Shown: piece after piece, positions 31,362 through 63,152 of the stretch
Position numbering within the stretch: the first letter of the stretch is position 1
How the letters are laid out: the number at the start of each line of letters is the position of its first letter
From: Octopus sinensis
Lineage: Eukaryota
Reading direction: 5' to 3'
Length of the DNA: 64,000 nt
Assembly: GCF_006345805.1 (NCBI RefSeq)
Contig: NC_043007.1
Span: forward strand, 63,054,001 to 63,118,000
Program-made: the position numbers and the translations under genes
The notes under the pieces: model-generated
What the model was told of the DNA's origin: nothing
The model's input: only the letters and a program-made list of their open reading frames with translations
Databases searched by the model: none

Positions 31362-32392
31362 TATATATATTAGTCAATTGTGATTGAAATTAAATGATGA
31401 CCAGATTTGTTTTGTTTTTTTTTTAATCTGGTCACCAGAAATGATTCAGTGACATGATAATAAATTTGGTGACATCACCATTGCTATTTCTGTCCATGTC
31501 ATATTTTAAAAAAAAAATGTGTCAGTGTTTCATCTGCTACAAAGAAGCAACTTTACATCGATTGGGATAACACCCTGTTTAAAAAAAAAAATTAATAAAA
31601 AATTTTTAAAAACTTTATTTTATTTTAGAAACAGATGAACAGACATAATTTATACTTGAATAATAATAATGTGCTATGTATAAGCTTATTTAAATGTATA
31701 TTCCTTGATATTTCCACTCACCCCTTCCTTAAAATTTTCTTTCTCATATACATATATATAATTTTGTTTCGGTTCAATTATTTCAGAGAATTCTTTAATA
31801 AAAAGGTCTTATTTAAATGAAAATTAAACTGAAAAATAAAGAACAAAATGTAACTCTCTAGACTCCATTGATTTCACCACCACCACCATCACTACCATTA
31901 TATCTGTATCTGGATATTATTAGAATTTAAGCATATAGGATCACTATATATATATATATATAATATATGTATATATATATATATATATGTTGTTTTTTTC
32001 TGCATGCATGTGTGTTTGCACATGTGCATGCATGTGTGTTTGCACATGTGCATGCATGTGTGTATGAGTAGTCATAGCAGTATTAGTAAGAGCTTTATAT
32101 GTCTTAGCACTAAGAAAGAAGAGTGTACTCAATTTCAAGTTTGTAGAATGAAAATATGTATTTGATAGTGTTAGGTCCTATCAAGGAAGCACCCATTTCA
32201 TAGGCCCAGCTGATACCAACTAGGCCCATGAAACAGATGACCTCTCCATGGACCTCTTGCTATCAAAATGAAGTATGTACTCGATATAAATGTGTATTGA
32301 GTCTTCATTTGAACTATGGTCTTCCAGACAAATACTGGATGTATTTCATATATATATAAAAATATATCTATATGTTTGTGTGTGTATATATA

Positions 32393-32423
<31 letters not shown>

Positions 32424-33429
32424 TAGTCAATTGTGATTGAAATTAAATGATGACCAGATTTGTTTTGTTTTTTTTTTAATCTGGTCACCAGAAATGATTC
32501 AGTGACATGATAATAATTTGGTGACATCACCATTGCTATTTCTGTCCATGTCATATTTTAAAAAAAAAATGTGTCAGTGTTTCATCTGCTACAAAGAAGC
32601 AACTTTACATCGATTGGGATAACACCCTGTTTAAAAAAAAAATTAATAAAAAATTTTTAAAAACTTTATTTTATTTTAGAAACAGATGAACAGACATAAT
32701 TTATACTTGAATAATAATAATGTGCTATGTATAAGCTTATTTAAATGTATATTCCTTGATATTTCCACTCACCCCTTCCTTAAAATTTTCTTTCTCATAT
32801 ACATATATATAATTTTGTTTCGGTTCAATTATTTCAGAGAATTCTTTAATAAAAAGGTCTTATTTAAATGAAAATTAAACTGAAAAATAAAGAACAAAAT
32901 GTAACTCTCTAGACTCCATTGATTTCACCACCACCACCATCACTACCATTATATCTGTATCTGGATATTATTAGAATTTAAGCATATAGGATCACTATAT
33001 ATATATATATATATAATATATGTATATATATATATATATATGTTGTTTTTTTCTGCATGCATGTGTGTTTGCACATGTGCATGCATGTGTGTTTGCACAT
33101 GTGCATGCATGTGTGTATGAGTAGTCATAGCAGTATTAGTAAGAGCTTTATATGTCTTAGCACTAAGAAAGAAGAGTGTACTCAATTTCAAGTTTGTAGA
33201 ATGAAAATATGTATTTGATAGTGTTAGGTCCTATCAAGGAAGCACCCATTTCATAGGCCCAGCTGATACCAACTAGGCCCATGAAACAGATGACCTCTCC
33301 ATGGACCTCTTGCTATCAAAATGAAGTATGTACTCGATATAAATGTGTATTGAGTCTTCATTTGAACTATGGTCTTCCAGACAAATACTGGATGTATTTC
33401 ATATATATATAAAAATATATCTATATGTT

Positions 33430-33477
<48 letters not shown>
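31362..33477. repeat. Near-identical tandem duplication, period ~1051 bp, bounded by (TA)n
   Basis: TTAGTCAATTGTGATTG at ~31370 and ~32423; identical ORFs at 31635 and 32686. Confidence 0.95.
31722..31807 (-). CDS. Weak candidate exon (duplicated at 32773-32858)
   Basis: aaataag|AC...GGG|gtgagt; encodes (D)LFIKEFSEIIEPKQNYIYVYEKENFKEG. Strong donor, no recognised homology. Confidence 0.3.
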
Positions 33478-33482
<5 letters not shown>

Positions 33483-35246: not shown

Positions 35247-36518
35247 TTAGGTTGTCTAGAAAGTTCATCCCAATTTTTTAAAGGAAAGAAAAAGGTCAAT
35301 AAATACTTGCCATTACATTTTTAATCAATCAAATATGAACCATTTTGTTGCACAATGTGTTTCCATCTTTCCTTTAGCTTGAAAATATCCCCTTCCCAGA
35401 ATTGAGATGGTTTCATGACAAAGAATTTGTCAAGGTATCTTTTTATGTCATCCAAGGAATTGAAATTTTTACCATTAAGACTATTCTGCAGAGACCTGAA
35501 TAAGTGGAAATCCATCTGGTGAATATGGAGGGGGGGGGGTAACACATCCCAGCCGAGCTGCAGCAATTTTTGTCTGGTTCCCAAAGAAACGTACAGTCTT
35601 GCATTATCATGTTGGAAAACTACATCCTTCCTGTTGGCCAATTCTGGGCATTTCTCTTGAATAGCTGCTTTTAACACGTCCAATTGTGTGCAGTATTTCT
35701 CAGAATTAATTGTCTGGTTACTTGGGAGAAGCTCATAGTACAGAATTCCTTTCCAATCCCACCAGACACAAAGCAAAACATTTTTAGGGTGAAGACCAGC
35801 TTTTGAGGTGGCTAAGGGTGGCTCGTGTCGCTTACTCCAGGATCGCTTTCCCTGAGCATTTCAGTCGATAATCCATTTCTCATCACCTGTCACAATTTGC
35901 TTTAAAAAAGGCGCGTTTTCATTCCGTTTATAAAGGGAATCACAGATGGAAATGCGATCCAAAAGGTTCTTCTCACTCAACTCATGTCGCACCCAAACAT
36001 CGTAGCAATTTGTGTACCCAAGATTTACCAGGTGTGCATGAACGACGGATTTTGATAAATTGAGGCTTTCTACCAATTCTCGGGTTGTGCAATGTGGGTT
36101 ATTCTCAATTAATTACTTCATTTGATCATCATCTGTAGTGGATGGTCTGCCTGATGGCTCTTTATCAATAAGGCTACAATCTCCAGTTCAGAACCTTGCA
36201 AACCACTTCCGTACAGTTCTTTCAGATAAAGAAATATCACTGTAAACTGCGCATATTTATTTGGATGCTTGTGAGGCATTTTTCCCTTTATGGAAAAAGA
36301 AAAGCATCAAGTGCCAAAAATGAACTTTCTTATCTTCCATTTTAAAGGGTTACAGAATTAACACAGGATATAGAAACATAAACATAAACGAAAAGATAGC
36401 TTAAACTGTGCTCTAAATGGAGGTGTAGTCAAATCCTATTTTATGGACTCAACCATGTTCTAAAATAAGTCAAAAGGTAAGCTACTATAAATCAACATGA
36501 ACTTTCCAAACAACCCAA
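35247..36518 (-). mobile_element. Full-length mariner DNA transposon (~1.27 kb), inactive
   Basis: TA-TTAGGTTGTCTAGAAAGTTCAT ... ATGAACTTTCCAAACAACCCAA-TA: TIRs plus TA target duplication. Confidence 0.93.
35321..36340 (-). pseudogene. Mariner transposase pseudogene
   Basis: Starts MEDKKVHF; contains WVRHEL, IVTGDEKWI, LCVWWDWKG, QHDNAR and DFHLFRSLQN, with stops and frameshifts. Confidence 0.9.
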
Positions 36519-36979: not shown

Positions 36980-37068
36980 GTTCAAATTTACAGAAAGCAA
37001 AAAAAATAAGACACATCAGAGAACAACAAACAAGTGTATTAGTTTGACACTCAGGAAGAATGGAAAAG

Positions 37069-37105
37069 TTTTTGACATTTTGAGCCTATGCTCTTTGACA
37101 GAAAG
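37069..37105 (-). ncRNA. CpG-decayed minimal hammerhead-like motif (same family as 46540-46577)
   Basis: The minus strand reads CTTT-CTGTCAA-A-GAGC-ATAG-GCTC-AAAATGTC-AAAA. Flanks 36985-37068 are homologous to 46445-46540. Confidence 0.5.
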
Positions 37106-37227
37106 GGCTGAGATAAAAAAAAAAATGGAGAGAGAGAGCAAAGAAAAACAAGAGAGGAAAAAAAAAGTAAGGATTAATGGTTCCACATGATAAAATGTAT
37201 ATATATAAATATACGTATATATATATG

Positions 37228-44974: not shown

Positions 44975-45390
44975 TTAATCACTGGGCAATAAATTGTGCT
45001 TGTGAAAACCTGTTGAGGCAAGTGAAGTCGTTGTCATGGCCAATGACAGTACTGCCTGATTGGTACTCGTGCCAGTGGCACATAAAAAGCACCATTTGAG
45101 CATTGTTGATGCCAGTGCCAGCTGACTGGTCCCATGCTGGTAGCATGTAAAAGGCACCATTCAAGCATGGTCAATGTCAGTACCACCTGACTGGCCCTCA
45201 TGCTGGTGGCACATAAAAAGGACTCCACTACACTCTCAGAGTGGTTGGCATTAGGAAGAGCATCCAGCTGTAGAAACTTTGCCAGATCGGATTGGAGCCT
45301 GGTGCAGCCTTCTGGCTTGCCAGCCCTCAGTCAGACCGTCCAACCCATGCCAGCATGGAAAGCAGATGCTAAACGATGAAGATGATGATG
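44975..45390 (+). mobile_element. SINE family C with internal ~60-bp tandem modules and (GAT)n tail
   Basis: GTGCCAGTGGCACATAAAAAGCACC modules; CATCCAGCTGTAGAAAC; AACCCATGCCAGCATGGAAA...GATGATG. Confidence 0.85.
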
Positions 45391-46389: not shown

Positions 46390-46442
<53 letters not shown>

Positions 46443-46539
46443 CGGGAAGCTTTATGAAAATAAACAAAAGACGAAGGCAGGTGGAAAACAAACGAACAAT
46501 TGTATTAGTATGGCGCTCAGGAAATATAAATAAAACAAG

Positions 46540-46577
46540 TCTTTAACGTTTCGAGCCTACGCTCTTCAACAGAAAGA
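46540..46577 (-). ncRNA. Minimal hammerhead-like motif with variant core, within a ~170-bp element next to (TA)n (46441-46610)
   Basis: Minus strand: TCTTT-CTGTTGA-A-GAGC-GTAG-GCTC-GAAAC-GTT-AAAGA. Stem I is 5 bp (TCTTT/AAAGA), stem II is 4 bp, and stem III is a loopless ACGT palindrome. Confidence 0.65.
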
Positions 46578-47828
46578 TACACAGAGAGAGAAAAACACAG
46601 AAAAACACATGTATAAAAAACATGTCATTATCAACTTACAACCACAATTGGTTCCGACAGACTGGTCTTAAGCCAATTTGGCCATAAGGCCTATAGGCCT
46701 GCATAGCTTTGTTTTAGATTTTTACATTCTTAAAGTATATTCTCAGGTAAAAGTCACACACAGCATTCTGTACTACAACAGTATTATTTGTACTTAAAAA
46801 AGTACCAAAGAATGCAAATACAAGAAATACACAATGTAGTGTTAAGAAACAGTTGCAAAACTTGCATAAAAATTTGTTGTAGATTGGTGTTTGGCTGTAG
46901 ATCTTCAATGTCATATGTTAGCTGATGTCATCTGTAATTGAGTTAATTTCTAAGAAATTAAACCCTTAAGATTTCAACTGGACTATGTATTATTGCCATA
47001 AAGTCGATCAGTTGCAAGTTGGATTAGGTCATAAGATGACGACCTGTATATATACACACACATCAGGCTTCTTTCAGCTTCCATCTACCAAATACTCTCA
47101 CAACGCTTTGGTTGGCCCATGGCTACAGTAGAAGAAGGGTGCCATGCAGTGGGACTGAACCTAGAACCATGTTGTTAAGAAGCAAACTTCTTACCATACA
47201 GCCATGCCATAATTTTCAAAAAATATTATTATTCAATATTTATTGTGTGTGTGTGTGTAATCTAGTTATATTAATGGTTGAAATGTTGATTTTACATTGT
47301 ATGTTATATTGATGAAATGATTTACGTGCAAGTAATCATTTAATAGTGATCAACCTGTTGGCTGTGATTTTTCATGAGATGATTAACTTTGTTAAATAAG
47401 TGGAAGGTTGAAAGTGTATTAGTGTAAGGAAGGGAGCAATAGTTAAAAATAGTTTGGGATGAATTTATGTGGAGTATGGAATGTGAAGGTTCTGTTATAT
47501 TATTGGGTGATAGTTGTGTAAGTTAGTGGTGGTGCGTAGGACAGTACAGTATTAGGAATCAATTATGTAAGAGCATGTCATGTTATTTTATGTAATATGC
47601 CGTGTGAGTTATGTATTTTATTGAATTGTACACATGTAGAACTGTATATGTGAGACAAAGTATATTGTGTGAGTCATGTTATTGAATTAAAAGTGTCTTG
47701 TATAGAATGTGGAATGTGCCTGGCAAGGGTTATGCAGTTACAAGCCCTGGAATTATATTTATGCTTTTGGTCATGTTCTTCTTTATCTTATATAAAGCAT
47801 AAGTTATTATTACAACTGTTTCTAAGAT

Positions 47829-48030: not shown

Positions 48031-48494
48031 TACAACTGTTCTTATTTTTATACTCTACATCCTGTTTAGTTCCATTTCAAGATCCTTTTGATAGCTTTTT
48101 AGCTCCTTTCCTGGAGACATTCTGGTTATAAAGGATCAAGATGCCTGAGAACAAAGGTTCTTGTAGCTGCATCTAACCAGTTTGCCTTGGTCTCCATGTT
48201 AGTCTAGACAAGAATATTCTAGATTATTATACCTATATCATGGTATTATATCACGTTTGATATAGGTTCATACTTCTTCTCAGTTTTCATGTTGAAGAGG
48301 CAGCATATTGCCCAATTGGCATAGCTCTTGACTAAGTCACATCTGTGTACACTGATTCTGTAAAGATTGGACAGCCAGAAATGATGTGATAAATTCATTT
48401 ATTATTGCTGCTGCTGCTGCTGCTGCTGTTGTTGTTGTTGTTATAATTATGCTTTGCCTATGCTTTAATTCATATCTAAATTGCTCCCCTCCTC

Positions 48495-50076
48495 CCCACA
48501 TCTCCTTCCCAGTTTTCAGAGTTGGCACTGTCAATGTTGGTACATTGAAAGGTAGGTCTAGTGAGATTGTAGAGATGCTTGAGAGAAGACGGGTTGATGT
48601 ATGCTGCATACAAGAGGTAAGATGGAGAGGTGCTTCAGCTAGGGTCCTCACAGGCAAGGCACATAGGTACAAAGTCTTCTGGCAAGGTAACATGGATGGT
48701 GTAGGGGGTGTAGGCATTCTCCTTGCGGAGAAATGGGTGGATAAGGTCATAGAGGTTATCAGGATTTGCGATAGAGTGCTCAAGCTCAGGTTGGTCCTAC
48801 AGAGTGGCACAGCTACGATTATCTCCGCCTATGCCCCACAAGCGGGACTACCAAATGATCAGAAGGACCACTTTTATGATACCCTTCTACAGGCTACCTC
48901 AAACACTAGTGGCAAGGACCTCATCTTTGTGGGTGGAGACTTTAATGGGCATATTGGGCGGGAATCGGGTATCTTCACTGGGGTACATGGTGGCCATGGT
49001 ATTGGCACCAGAAATGATGAGGGAACTAGACTACTGGAATTCTGTGATGCATGTAACCTTTTAATCTGCAACACTAAATTCAGGAAGCCTGACTGCCACC
49101 TTATAACCTATCAGTCAGGAGACTCCGCTAGCCAAATAGACTTCATCCTCACCATACAGCGGAAGGCAGGGTCGCTCTTAAATACAAAGACCCTCCCAGG
49201 TGAAGAATGTATCCCTCAGCATAGGCTAATCATCAGTGACTTTAAGCTTGAGGCCAGAAGGACTCCAAGAAACAAACCAATCCAGAAAAGAAGGATTTGG
49301 AAGCTAAAGAACCCTTCACATGGTCAGAGATTTAGGGACATCCTCATCAAGAAATTTGATGAGAGGGAGGAGGAGCTTCGGACGTCGGACATAGAAGGTA
49401 GCTGGGAATTCCTATGGGACAGCTTGCTGAGTGCCACAGACCAAGTCTGTGGATGGTGCAAAGTCCCTTCCAGACCTAGAGTTACATGGTGGTGGAATAG
49501 TGCAGTAGACAAAGCCATTAGTGCAAAGAGACGGGCCTGGAATGCCTGGAGGGATGGGGGTAGCCTGGGCAAAGTTCAGAAAGCTCCTACCCCTACCGGC
49601 GACAAAGGGTCTCTCGCTCAGAGTGAAAGGTAGATTGTATGATATGTGTGCGAACTGCCATGCTTCACGGTAGTGAAACATGGGCTGTGACTGCAGAGGA
49701 CATGCGTAGACTTGAAAGAAATGAAGCTAGCATGATCCGCTGGATGTGTAATGTCAGTGTGCATGCACGACAGAGTGTAAGCACCCTGAGAGAAATGCTG
49801 GACATAAGAAGCATCATATGTGGTGTGCAAGAGTGACGCTTGCGATAGTTTGGTCATGTACTGTGGATGGATGAGGAGAGATGTGTGAAGAAGTGCCACT
49901 CCCAAACAGTTGAAGGCATCAGGGGTAGAGGTAGACCCAGGAAGACATGGGATGAGGTAGTCAAGCATGACCTCAGAGCGTTGAGCCTCACTGAGGCAAT
50001 GGCGAAGGACCGAGATCTCTGGAGATATGCTGTGACTGCAAAGACCCGGGCTGCTTCATGCACCAGTTCCGCATAG
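48495..50076 (+). mobile_element. Young RTE LINE with open APE endonuclease frame and deleted RT core
   Basis: RVGTVNVGTL, CCIQEVRW, SAYAPQ, GGDFNGHIG, SQIDFIL and PQHRLI lie in one open frame. At ~49560 the sequence jumps to WAKFR...RLYDMCVRTAMLHGSETW...RGRPRKTW. Confidence 0.93.
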
Positions 50077-50094: not shown

Positions 50095-50650
50095 ACCCTG
50101 GATCCCAGAACGTCCCACTGTGCTTGAGGAGACCTGTTGAGTCAAGTACATGAACATGAACATGAACATCGAAATAAATATCAATGGAAATAGTAGTTGT
50201 GATACTTGTGCCGGTGGCACATAAAAAGCACCATCCGAACGTGGCCGTAGCCAGTGCCGACTCGACTGGCTTCTGTGCCAGTGGGACATAAAAAGCACCA
50301 TCCGAACGTGGCCGATGCCAGCGCCACCCCGACTGGCTTCTGTGCCGGTGGCACATAAAAAGCACCATTCGAATGTGGCCGTTGCCAGCACCGCCTTGGC
50401 TGGCTTCCGTGCCGGTGGCACGTTAAAAGCTCCAACCAATCGTGGCCGATGACGGACCCCCCTGGCACCTGTGCAGGCGGCACGTAAAAAGCACCCACTA
50501 CACTCGCGGAGTGGTTGGCGTTAGGAAGGGCATCCAGCTGTAGAAACTCTGCCAGATCAGACTGGAGCCTGGTGCAGCCCCTGGCTTCCCAAACCCCGGT
50601 TGAACCGTCCAACCCGTGCTAGCGCGGAAAACGGACGTTAAAAAAAAAAA
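50095..50650 (+). mobile_element. Young SINE family C copy with ~5 internal ~61-bp tandem modules
   Basis: GTGCCGGTGGCAC(A/G)TAAAAAGCACC-like units at ~50208, 50274, 50342, 50409 and 50471; tail AACCCGTGCTAGCGCGGAAAACGGACGTTAAA. Confidence 0.88.
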
Positions 50651-55764: not shown

Positions 55765-56150
55765 CTATCATCATCATTATCATCATTTAACATCTGTTTT
55801 CCATGTTGGCATAGGCTGGACGGTTTGACAGGAGCTGGTAAGGGTGGGGATCATACCAGGCTCCATTGCCTGTTCTGGCATGGTTTCTATAGCTGGATAC
55901 CCTTCCTCGTGTCAACAACTTTACAGAGTGTACTGGGTCCTTTTTATGCGACACCAGCACCAGTGCTTTTTATGTGGCATCAGCACCAGTACTTTTTATG
56001 TGGCACCAGCACTAGTATCAATTCTACTGTGGTGGGTCTTCTTGAGAACAGCAAGATGCCAGACATCTTGGCCCTTTGTCATCTCCTTTGTAAGGCTCAA
56101 TGTCTTGAGATTGGCCTTCAATACTTCATTCCATCTCATCTTCTATGCTT
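55765..56150 (-). mobile_element. SINE family C
   Basis: (ATC)n-TTTAACATCTGTTTTCCATG...CTATAGCTGGATA...GTGCTTTTTATGTGGCA. Confidence 0.75.
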
Positions 56151-58224: not shown

Positions 58225-58590
58225 AGCAAAAACACTTGTTCTGTCACTCTGTCACACTCTAAACTTTCATCATCTGGTACAAGATCACCTCCTCAAATAC
58301 CACCTCCTCTCTCAAAGAATCTTCGTCTTGCAAGTTGCTTGGTAACCCTACTAATGAAGGTGTCACGTAAAAAGTATCCAGTCCACACTGTAAAGTGGTT
58401 GGTGTTTGGAAGGGCATCCAGCTGTAAAAACCATGCCAAAACCAACCTCGCCTGTGCTGGTGTCACATAAAAAGCACTCAGTCCACTCTGGAGGGTGGTT
58501 GGTGTTAAGAAGGTTATCCAGCCATAAAAAGCATGCCACAACAGATGCAGACGCCTGGTGAAGATGTACGAGGATGATGATGACAACAAT
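58225..58590 (+). mobile_element. SINE family C, decayed
   Basis: GTGTCACGTAAAAAG...GTGGTTGG...AGGGCATCCAGCTGTA occurs twice; GATGATG tail. Confidence 0.7.
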
Positions 58591-61883: not shown

Positions 61884-63152
61884 CAGTGGGGGGAAATAAA
61901 TATTCGTACATGTCAAAATTCTTTAGTTAATATCTAATGAACAATGAACATAAATGGGATATACCAATACTATATATGCATACACCTGCATAAACTAAGA
62001 ATATGCAAAAGAAACTAATAAATTATAGTAACTAAGGAATTTATATACAGTTATAAATATTTAGGTGTGAAAAAAGTATTTGTACAGAATAAATTTATGA
62101 TTTTCTATGCCACAAAATACTGTTAAAATATTTTTTTTACTAGAACTTTCTCGTTTGTTCAAATAATCTTATGTCATTTTTAAGTGTCAAAACTCTAGCT
62201 TCTTCATTCAGCATTGAGACAACATAAAGTTGTATCGTAATAAAGGCAAAAAGTAAAGAACTCACAAATTCAGTGAAAAACTTAATTATTGAACAGTGGA
62301 AAGCAGATAAAAGTTACAGGAAAATATCAGAGACCCTTTGTATTCTATTTTCTACCATATCTTCATATATTCAAAGTTATAAAATAATCGGGAACTGTTG
62401 AAAACAGAATGAGATCCGGTGCACCACGCAAGATTTCCCCTAGATCTTTAAGAAGAATGAAGCGAAGAATTGGAAAAAATGCAATGATCACCAGAAAGGA
62501 GTTGTAAGAAGATTTGTTAGCTTCAGGGACTAGTGTTACACTATGAACAATCAGCAATGAACTTCATAGGAATGAACTGAAATCACGCTCTCCTAGAAAA
62601 ACTTCGCTGTTGACTAAAAGGCATAGAGATGCCCATTTAAAATTTGTTTATGAACATAAAGATAAATCTGAAACATTCTGAGAAAATGTTCTATGGACAG
62701 ACGAGTCGAAAATTGAATTGTTTAGACAAAATTCGCGTAGCCATGTTTGGAGGAAAGATGGTACAGCCTATTTGCCGCAAAACACAATTCCTACTGTAAA
62801 GTTTGGAGGTGGCAACATCATGGTGTGGGAGTGTTTCTCTGCAAATGGTACTGGCAATTTACATGTGATAGATGGTAGAATGAATGCAGAGATGTACCAA
62901 AATATTTTGAACAATGATTTATGGGACTCTGTAGAAAAGCCCCAGCTTTGTGAAGGGTGGGTTTTACAACAGGATAACGATCCTAAGCAAACGGCAAAAT
63001 CTACCAAAAAATGGATTGTCAATCACAATATAAAATTATTAGAATGGCCAAGCCAGTCACCTGACTTGAACCCCATTGAAAATTTGTGGCAATATTTGAA
63101 AATTAAAATTCATTCAAGAGCCCCCCACCATGCATTGCAGATTTGAAGAAAA
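61884..63152 (+). mobile_element. Tc1-like transposon with pseudogenised transposase, truncated by the assembly gap
   Basis: TA-CAGTGGGGGGAAATAAATATTCG end; [31 protein letters not shown] and [15 protein letters not shown] motifs; in-frame stops upstream. Confidence 0.92.

What the first reader, a model, noticed from the sequence alone, without database searches (positions are those of the whole stretch)
46441..46610. Ultra-minimal hammerhead-like family with a non-canonical core (CUGUYGA plus extra A, loopless stem III)
Seen: a 38-nt minus-strand motif, UCUUU-CUGUUGA-A-GAGC(GUAG)GCUC-GAAAC-GUU-AAAGA. Stems I and II are perfect. Stem III is just ACGU, which can pair only with a second copy. 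A second, diverged copy at 37069-37105 also has U at core position 6, implying a family consensus near CUGUCGA-A-GAGC-GUAG-GCUC-GAAAC-GUC. Established: A6 is normally invariant in hammerheads, while an extra A after A9 is a known natural variant. Inference: U6 is a family trait rather than decay, so this is either an obligate-dimer variant ribozyme or a structure kept for a non-catalytic role such as RT recognition. An alternative register (UUGAAGA) gives a poorer stem II.
Basis: partly seen in the sequence, partly recalled or inferred. Interest (0 to 1): 0.75.

Follow-up and report, generated by a model that had tools for sequence, protein, structure and literature searches.

The report
Retrotransposon hammerhead with altered catalytic core
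This is the cut-off end of a Penelope-like jumping gene whose hammerhead-shaped RNA motif has U where hammerhead ribozymes almost always have A, in over 13,000 genomic copies; the motif is otherwise unchanged across six subfamilies, so it likely still folds as a hammerhead and likely cuts slowly, which is untested.

Summary
The motif is real (46540-46577, minus strand). It lies in a 163-nt 5'-truncated copy of a Penelope-like element (PLE) with reverse transcriptase, Neptune-type zinc linker and GIY-YIG nuclease; full-length copies carry the motif in both terminal repeats. The loopless stem III and the extra A are the published norm for PLE minimal hammerheads, so neither is new. U6 is the unusual part, and it is a family trait: of 13,792 copies with an otherwise exact core, 13,318 have U6 and 140 have A6. 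A homologous sister family in the same genome, and 6 of 6 motifs beside related RT genes from other organisms, keep A6, so U6 is derived. Across six subfamilies, 34 motif columns never change, while positions 7 and 17, the two that hammerhead chemistry leaves free, change 7 times. Best reading (0.5): a weakened, dimer- and probably protein-dependent hammerhead. Main rival (0.3): a catalytically dead fold kept for recognition. Genomic 5' junctions show no clear excess at the cut site. Cleavage is untested, and one key paper could not be read. New variant of a known kind.

The parts
46441..46603 (-). 5'-truncated copy of the 3' terminal repeat (pLTR) of a Neptune-like Penelope-like element, youngest subfamily
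   Evidence: 99.4% over 168 nt (46437-46603) to the 3' pLTR of full-length L212; 99.5% over 187 nt, running into the TA array, to L051
46540..46577 (-). minimal type I hammerhead-like motif with U at core position 6
   Evidence: sequence; family counts
46573..46577 (-). 5' strand of stem I (pairs with 46540-46544)
   Evidence: sequence; predicted pairing; four of five pairs unchanged in six subfamily consensuses
46565..46572 (-). core C3 U4 G5 U6 U7 G8 A9 plus the extra A; U6 at 46569, variable position 7 at 46568
46553..46564 (-). stem II (4 bp, G10.1-C11.1 closing pair) with GUAG loop
   Evidence: predicted pair probability about 1.0 with 8-nt flanks; same stem in the A6 sister family
46545..46552 (-). 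G12 A13 A14, the ACGU palindrome (stem III only between two copies) and U17; predicted cut between 46545 and 46544
   Evidence: sequence; numbering by comparison with PMC4209133 Fig. S3; cleavage inferred, not tested
46441..46539 (-). 3' tail of the element, where reverse transcription probably started
   Evidence: shared by all subfamilies and followed by (TA)n; a 19-nt tail word has 17,835 copies; role inferred from PMC11167929
46252..46440 (.). (AT)n microsatellite at the element's 3' end, the likely insertion target
   Evidence: copies mostly end in (TA)n
36980..37149 (-). older truncated copy of the same family (oldest subfamily), motif at 37070-37105 with U6 and four CpG-type changes
   Evidence: 74% over 170 nt to L031; placed in the oldest group of the tree

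Best explanation
The motif is the terminal-repeat hammerhead of a Neptune-like Penelope retroelement whose lineage replaced core A6 by U, and it likely still folds as a two-copy (dimeric) hammerhead that likely cuts slowly, probably with help from the element's own protein. Shown: the element, its two motif-bearing terminal repeats about 4.3-4.5 kb apart, U6 as the family state, A6 in relatives, and stasis of the motif except at positions 7 and 17. Inferred: a transcript holding two repeats pairs their ACGU palindromes to make stem III; U6 lowers the rate; cutting trims or regulates the RNA but is not what defines the ends of most insertions, which are ordinary 5'-truncated reverse transcripts primed at (TA)n.
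For: Element: RVT_1 at E 1e-7 and a weak GIY-YIG hit in one frame of 835-1009 codons; 6 of 12 regions fetched have the motif on both sides of a long frame; repeats 92-99% alike in 7 elements. Constraint: along six subfamily consensuses, 0 substitutions in 34 motif columns, 7 at positions 7 and 17, and 27 in 81 downstream flank columns; expected 11.3, Poisson P = 1.2e-5; for the ten core columns alone P = 0.036. Assigning copies by flank alone (121 of 126) recovers the same 7 and 17 states. Position 17 is A or U and never G in the consensuses. C3 and U16.1 are unchanged although they are unpaired in the rival rod fold. Precedent: a natural A6C hammerhead still cleaves at under 0.1 per min (PMC3088659, passages; PMC7151607, part 1 of 4), and an Anolis PLE hammerhead cleaves only with the element's protein (PMC11167929).
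Against: A6 is a defining core base. Single and double changes in the CUGA turn gave low activity, with no rescue except the C3-G8 swap (PMC9901934, passages); I found no number for A6U itself. Even A6 minimal hammerheads cleave poorly in vitro. In the youngest subfamilies U6 and U7 are predicted to pair with A15.1 and A14 and hide the palindrome (p 0.98 with short flanks, 0.53-0.72 with 60-nt flanks). 5' junctions do not clearly pile up at the cut site. No compensatory change was found in stem II (3 of 82 listed G-to-A copies; no second U6 family among 100 listed of 467), so the structure rests on homology and stasis, not covariation. The stasis of U6 by itself is not significant (P = 0.72).
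Confidence: 0.5

Rival explanations
1. The ribozyme is catalytically dead; its fold (hammerhead-like, or a rod in which U4 G5 U6 pair with A15.1 C15.2 G16.2) is kept because the element's RT-endonuclease protein recognises it.
For: A6 lost; predicted U6-A15.1 pairing of 0.39-0.98 in six U6 representatives against 0.0 in five natural A6 copies and two sister copies with short flanks; no clear junction excess at the cut site; hammerhead mutants did not affect insertion of an Anolis PLE in vitro; Naiad PLEs spread without hammerheads (PMC8557442, passages).
Against: The rod is lost in three of six U6 representatives with 60-nt flanks, and A6 versions have their own core-hiding helices. Position 7 went through all four bases although U7 extends the rod. 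C3 and U16.1 are unchanged although unpaired in the rod.
Confidence: 0.3
2. The sequence is conserved for a DNA-level or splicing role in the terminal repeat (internal promoter or splice acceptor), and the hammerhead shape is inherited baggage.
For: PLE terminal repeats hold promoters (PMC6765202, section 11 part 2) and in Drosophila an intron ends at helix I; a pyrimidine tract precedes the motif; no compensatory changes.
Against: It does not predict freedom at exactly positions 7 and 17. Only the A7 subfamily has an AG directly behind the tract. No GT..AG joint in contigs of four runs (weak, contigs only).
Confidence: 0.12
3. The motif is a neutral relic that has not yet decayed in the master elements.
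For: Single insertions decay freely; the lineage is short, with about 0.33 substitutions per flank column.
Against: 0 changes in 34 columns against 11.3 expected, P = 1.2e-5.
Confidence: 0.08

Closest known systems
Minimal type I hammerheads (min-HHR) of metazoan Penelope-like elements (Cervera and De la Pena 2014, PMC4209133)
   Same: Position in both terminal repeats, short stem I, G10.1-C11.1, extra base after A9, no loop 3, palindromic 15.1-16.1, thousands of solo copies. The Acropora Neptune motif in Fig. S3 has the same 4-bp stem II plus tetraloop layout.
   Different: All 56 motifs in Fig. S3 have A6 (their search required it); here 96.6% of 13,792 counted copies have U6.
A6 sister family in the same genome (L182-L211)
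   Same: Homologous terminal repeat (about 70% identity), same stem II, same 3' core, (TA)n ends.
   Different: A6, a 3-nt loop 2 and a different tail; only one decayed GIY-YIG remnant seen in 30 loci (L188); it makes up most of the 100 listed of 6,358 matches.
Bcep176 phage hammerhead, natural A6C variant (PMC3088659, PMC7151607)
   Same: Natural change at position 6 with the rest of the core kept.
   Different: A single phage motif with C and a full stem III; slow in Mg2+, better in Mn2+. Here the base is U, in an animal retroelement family, and activity is unknown.
Neptune-clade PLEs (defined in PMC8557442, passages)
   Same: RT with DKG motif, C-x4-C-xx-C linker, C-terminal GIY-YIG with CCHH, microsatellite targeting.
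   Different: No tree with named Neptune and Nematis references could be built, so the clade label rests on motifs.
Dimeric small hammerhead variants of Lunse, Weinberg and Breaker 2017 (PMC5785218)
   Same: Reduced stem III, PLE association, cleavage as dimers (known to me from citing text, and recall).
   Different: Not readable here; whether its alignments hold position-6 variants is unknown.

Membership tests
Hammerhead ribozyme, PLE minimal type I | C3 U4 G5, G8 A9, G12 A13 A14, A15.1-U16.1 | tested here: met
Hammerhead ribozyme, PLE minimal type I | A at position 6 | tested here: not met
   U in 13,318, A in 140, C or G in 334 copies; 27 of 28 and 22 of 23 in samples not chosen by the core
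Hammerhead ribozyme, PLE minimal type I | Position 7 free; position 17 is A, C or U | tested here: met
   position 7 U10 G5 C4 A4, position 17 A13 U10 in 23 tail-anchored copies
Hammerhead ribozyme, PLE minimal type I | Stem I of 3 or more pairs, stem II closed by G10.1-C11.1, extra base after A9, palindromic remnant of stem III | tested here: met
   sequence, folding, comparison with Fig. S3
Hammerhead ribozyme, PLE minimal type I | Covariation in the stems within the family | tested here: inconclusive
   stems unchanged among subfamilies; no excess of compensated copies
Hammerhead ribozyme, PLE minimal type I | Self-cleavage after position 17 | not testable with these tools
   only contigs, no raw RNA reads; genomic junctions uninformative
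Hammerhead ribozyme (Rfam models) | Match to an Rfam hammerhead model | tested here: not met
   none among the 150 listed of 224 matches at E<=5 in the window; 74 weaker rows not shown
Penelope-like element, EN+ | One frame with RT followed by GIY-YIG endonuclease | tested here: met
   RVT_1 above cut-off (E 1e-7); GIY-YIG E 0.006-0.008, below Pfam's cut-off but with the motif visible; 1,185 relatives at E<=1e-30 among 8,000 scored
Penelope-like element, EN+ | Direct terminal repeats (pLTRs) that hold the hammerhead motif | tested here: met
   6 of 12 regions plus L060; repeats 92-99% alike
Penelope-like element, EN+ | DKG motif and CCHH finger in the endonuclease | tested here: met
   read by eye in the translations; definitions
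Neptune clade | CX2-5CxxC linker between RT and endonuclease | tested here: met
   C-x4-C-xx-C; shared with Nematis, where it is described as reduced
Neptune clade | RT tree placement with named references | not tested
   no named references were available as tool sequences; indirect: L258 (58% identity in the best segment) carries a motif with the same stem II and loop as the Acropora element listed as Neptune

The most novel reading that the evidence does not exclude
A recently active Penelope-like lineage has turned its hammerhead into a non-cutting RNA element: U6 kills catalysis and locks the monomer as a rod, yet the fold has been kept intact through six subfamilies because the element's protein uses it. 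PLE hammerheads would then be kept for recognition as much as for cleavage.
Probability: 0.3. Interest if true: 0.75.

Novelty: new variant of a known kind. Interest (0 to 1): 0.55.

Why it matters
What PLE hammerheads do in vivo is called a mystery in a 2020 review (PMC7761336, passages), and a 2024 in vitro study found cleavage dispensable for insertion. This family is a natural experiment: a young, abundant element with a fixed change at a core base, a sister family with the canonical base in the same genome, and 140 natural A6 copies. Either result is informative. Cleavage would show that A6 is dispensable in a dimeric or protein-assisted hammerhead; no cleavage would show a hammerhead fold conserved without catalysis. 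Searches that require CUGANGA miss such families, so PLEs said to lack hammerheads may deserve a second look.

Tried and rejected
Cleavage-defined 5' ends. Among 52 distinct places counted by eye in the 100 rows, about 10 joined (TA)n to the cut site against 4 at the other TA in the motif; a script on the 22 distinct places among the 30 loci fetched gave 5 at -1 and 3 at -16. The control removed the signal: among 33 distinct places in the 100 rows, 4 were at the cut site, 4 at a downstream TATAT and 5 at +7/+8. Only 46 copies genome-wide fit a pattern for junctions at -2 to 0. TA microhomology explains it. L053's upstream repeat starts 2 nt behind the site, a single case.

Compensatory subfamily in stem II: not found. 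A6 subfamily: not found; the 20 A6 loci fetched scatter over the tree. Dimer energies: multiloop penalties made them uninformative, so they are not used.

Sequencing runs: no RNA holder listed. In contigs of X1, X11, X16 and X19 the only core row was position 7 and none was at position 6, but the table also lacks the known position 17 variation, so I give it little weight. No splice joint in X1, X11, X13 or X15.

Rfam: the best rows were microsatellite-driven miRNA hits. Earlier scan notes: nothing in three look-ups. Papers not held: PMC5785218 and PMC5850863. The first script timed out.

Full report
Observation. The motif is on the minus strand at 46540-46577, with C3 at 46572, U6 at 46569 and the predicted cut between 46545 and 46544. 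A second copy at 37070-37105 has U6 and four changes, all at CpG dinucleotides. The window is G000:C11:63054001-63118000 in a 2.72-Gb genome. It looks like an octopus genome to me, but that is recall and comes from no call. Rfam lists no hammerhead among the 150 shown of 224 matches, and the isolated motif folds no better than shuffles, so the case rests on the family.

The family. The 22-nt word from G8 to U16.1 occurs 15,175 times exactly, and the reversed control 0 times. With C3 U4 G5 fixed in front, position 6 is U in 13,318 copies, A in 140 and C or G in 334 (88 C and 12 G in the 100 listed, by eye): 96.6% U and 1.0% A of 13,792. Two samples not chosen by the core agree. Of 30 loci found with the endonuclease protein, 28 had the motif and 27 of these had U6; the other has a one-base deletion. 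Of 30 loci found with a tail word, 23 had the motif and 22 of these had U6; the other is truncated there. The 20 A6 loci fetched fall into different subfamilies, so they are best read as single changes after insertion.

The element. The window copy (46441-46603) is 99.4% identical over 168 nt to the 3' repeat of L212. Upstream of the motif, longer copies encode a reverse transcriptase (RVT_1, E 1e-7) and a GIY-YIG domain (E 0.006-0.008, below Pfam's cut-off) in one frame, with DKG, YIDD, a C-x4-C-xx-C linker and the CCHH pattern visible in the translations. Of 12 regions picked for long open frames, 6 have the motif on both sides, 4.3-4.5 kb apart; 11 of those 12 motif copies have U6 and one has C6. 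The repeats are 92-99% alike in 7 elements. Copies mostly end in (TA)n. This is an endonuclease-bearing Penelope-like element, Neptune-like by motifs (definitions from PMC8557442, passages). The frames read here lack a clean start; contigs from three runs show inserted bases at two places in L212's 5' part, so some breaks may be assembly errors.

What is already known. Cervera and De la Pena (PMC4209133; parts 1-2 of 4 and supplement parts 1-2 of 3) describe this architecture in PLE repeats: no loop 3, an extra base after A9, palindromic 15.2-16.2, weak cleavage as dimers. All 56 motifs of their Fig. S3 have A6, though their descriptor required it. A natural A6C variant cleaves slowly and prefers Mn2+ (PMC3088659, passages; PMC7151607, part 1 of 4). 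Pairwise mutagenesis found low activity for changes in the CUGA turn (PMC9901934, passages; supplement listed, not read). An Anolis PLE hammerhead cleaves only with protein and is not needed for insertion in vitro (PMC11167929, passages and section 3 part 2). Eight paper searches (listings seen) showed no report of a U6 family, and a 12-letter motif word was absent from the one supplement file of PMC8557442. The two papers most likely to hold one, PMC5785218 and PMC5850863, were not available, and bioRxiv supplements were closed, so absence from print is not established. I also saw part 1 of 5 of 10.64898/2026.07.22.740005, passages of PMC11014351 (not used), passages and section 11 part 2 of PMC6765202 and passages of PMC7761336.

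U6 is derived. A pattern for canonical minimal hammerheads has 6,358 matches in G000 (control 9), and most of the 100 listed belong to one family with A6, the same stem II and a 3-nt loop. Its repeat is about 70% identical to ours and shares the tail layout. In 80 metagenome loci encoding relatives of the RT, a scan with position 6 left free found 6 motifs in 6 loci, all A6, and none in ten shuffles. No second U6 family appeared among the 100 listed of 467 matches that exclude the common stem II base.

The motif is constrained like a hammerhead. A tree of 126 family copies and 29 sister copies, rooted on one sister copy, is a ladder; I cut it by eye into six groups, whose median divergence from their own consensus falls from 0.149 to 0.015, though not strictly in order. 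Between successive consensuses there are 0 substitutions in 34 motif columns, 4 at position 7 (U, G, A, C, U), 3 at position 17 (A and U only), and 27 in 81 downstream columns. The upstream flank is low-complexity and was left out of the final test. Expected 11.3, P = 1.2e-5; ten core columns alone P = 0.036; loop 2 alone (0.26) and position 6 alone (0.72) are not significant. Caveats: many copies were fetched through motif patterns, and the groups came from a tree that included the motif. Against these, flank-only assignment of 121 of 126 copies recovers the same states, and the tail-anchored sample shows the same pattern. There is no covariation.

How it may work. Freedom at 7 and 17 with fixed C3, G8, G12 and U16.1 is what the hammerhead fold predicts, so I infer the fold is still used. 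Two copies on one transcript, or on two, would pair their ACGU palindromes. U6 would slow the chemistry, and protein help is plausible by analogy. Against this, folding predicts a monomer rod in which U6 pairs with A15.1: strong in the U7 subfamilies, weak or lost in the others once 60-nt flanks are added, and A6 versions have other core-hiding helices. Genomic junctions give no sign that cleavage sets insertion ends. I give 0.5 to a slow dimeric ribozyme, 0.3 to a dead fold kept for recognition, 0.12 to a promoter or splicing role and 0.08 to a relic.

Verdict. It works like a PLE minimal hammerhead and descends from one, but it fails the A6 test and cleavage is unshown, so I do not file it as a canonical hammerhead. 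The element is a new member of a known kind; the motif is a new variant of a known kind. Interest 0.55.

Noticed in passing
L057:1200-2200 (G000:C22, about 20,120,200-20,121,200): Four tandem units of about 312 bp, each holding the motif; three have A6 and one has U6. It resembles a retrozyme-like array made from a pLTR piece, or a local duplication.
   Followed up: partly
L182-L211: An abundant sister PLE repeat family with a canonical A6 minimal hammerhead and a 3-nt loop 2; no intact frame seen in 30 loci.
   Followed up: partly
G000:C2:131812448 and C5:60782195: Two truncated copies repeat the first 10-11 bases behind the predicted cut site at their 5' junction, as if reverse transcription restarted there.
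   Followed up: no
L212:1100-6370: The sense strand of the element is very poor in G (617 of 5,270 bases) and rich in C and U, with AC-rich repeats before the motif.
   Followed up: no
window 14851-15228 (+): Frame with a VASP tetramerisation domain (E 9e-12), probably a last exon of an Ena/VASP-family gene.
   Followed up: partly
window 48356-49630 (+), 35324-35860 (-), 62682-63143 (+): Remnants of a LINE endonuclease, a mariner-type transposase and a DDE_3 transposase.
   Followed up: partly
window 31933-32423 and 32984-33478: Matching tandem-repeat rows about 1,053 bp apart suggest a local direct duplication.
   Followed up: no
window 45035-45220, 50207-50495, 55940-56017, 58359-58542; 609-1398: Tandem 26-100 bp units that share a short GC-flanked A-run word, probably parts of a common SINE-like repeat, and a 24-bp minisatellite.
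   Followed up: no
L297:327: A related-RT locus carries a minimal hammerhead with the U3-A8 swap and a 7-bp stem II.
   Followed up: no
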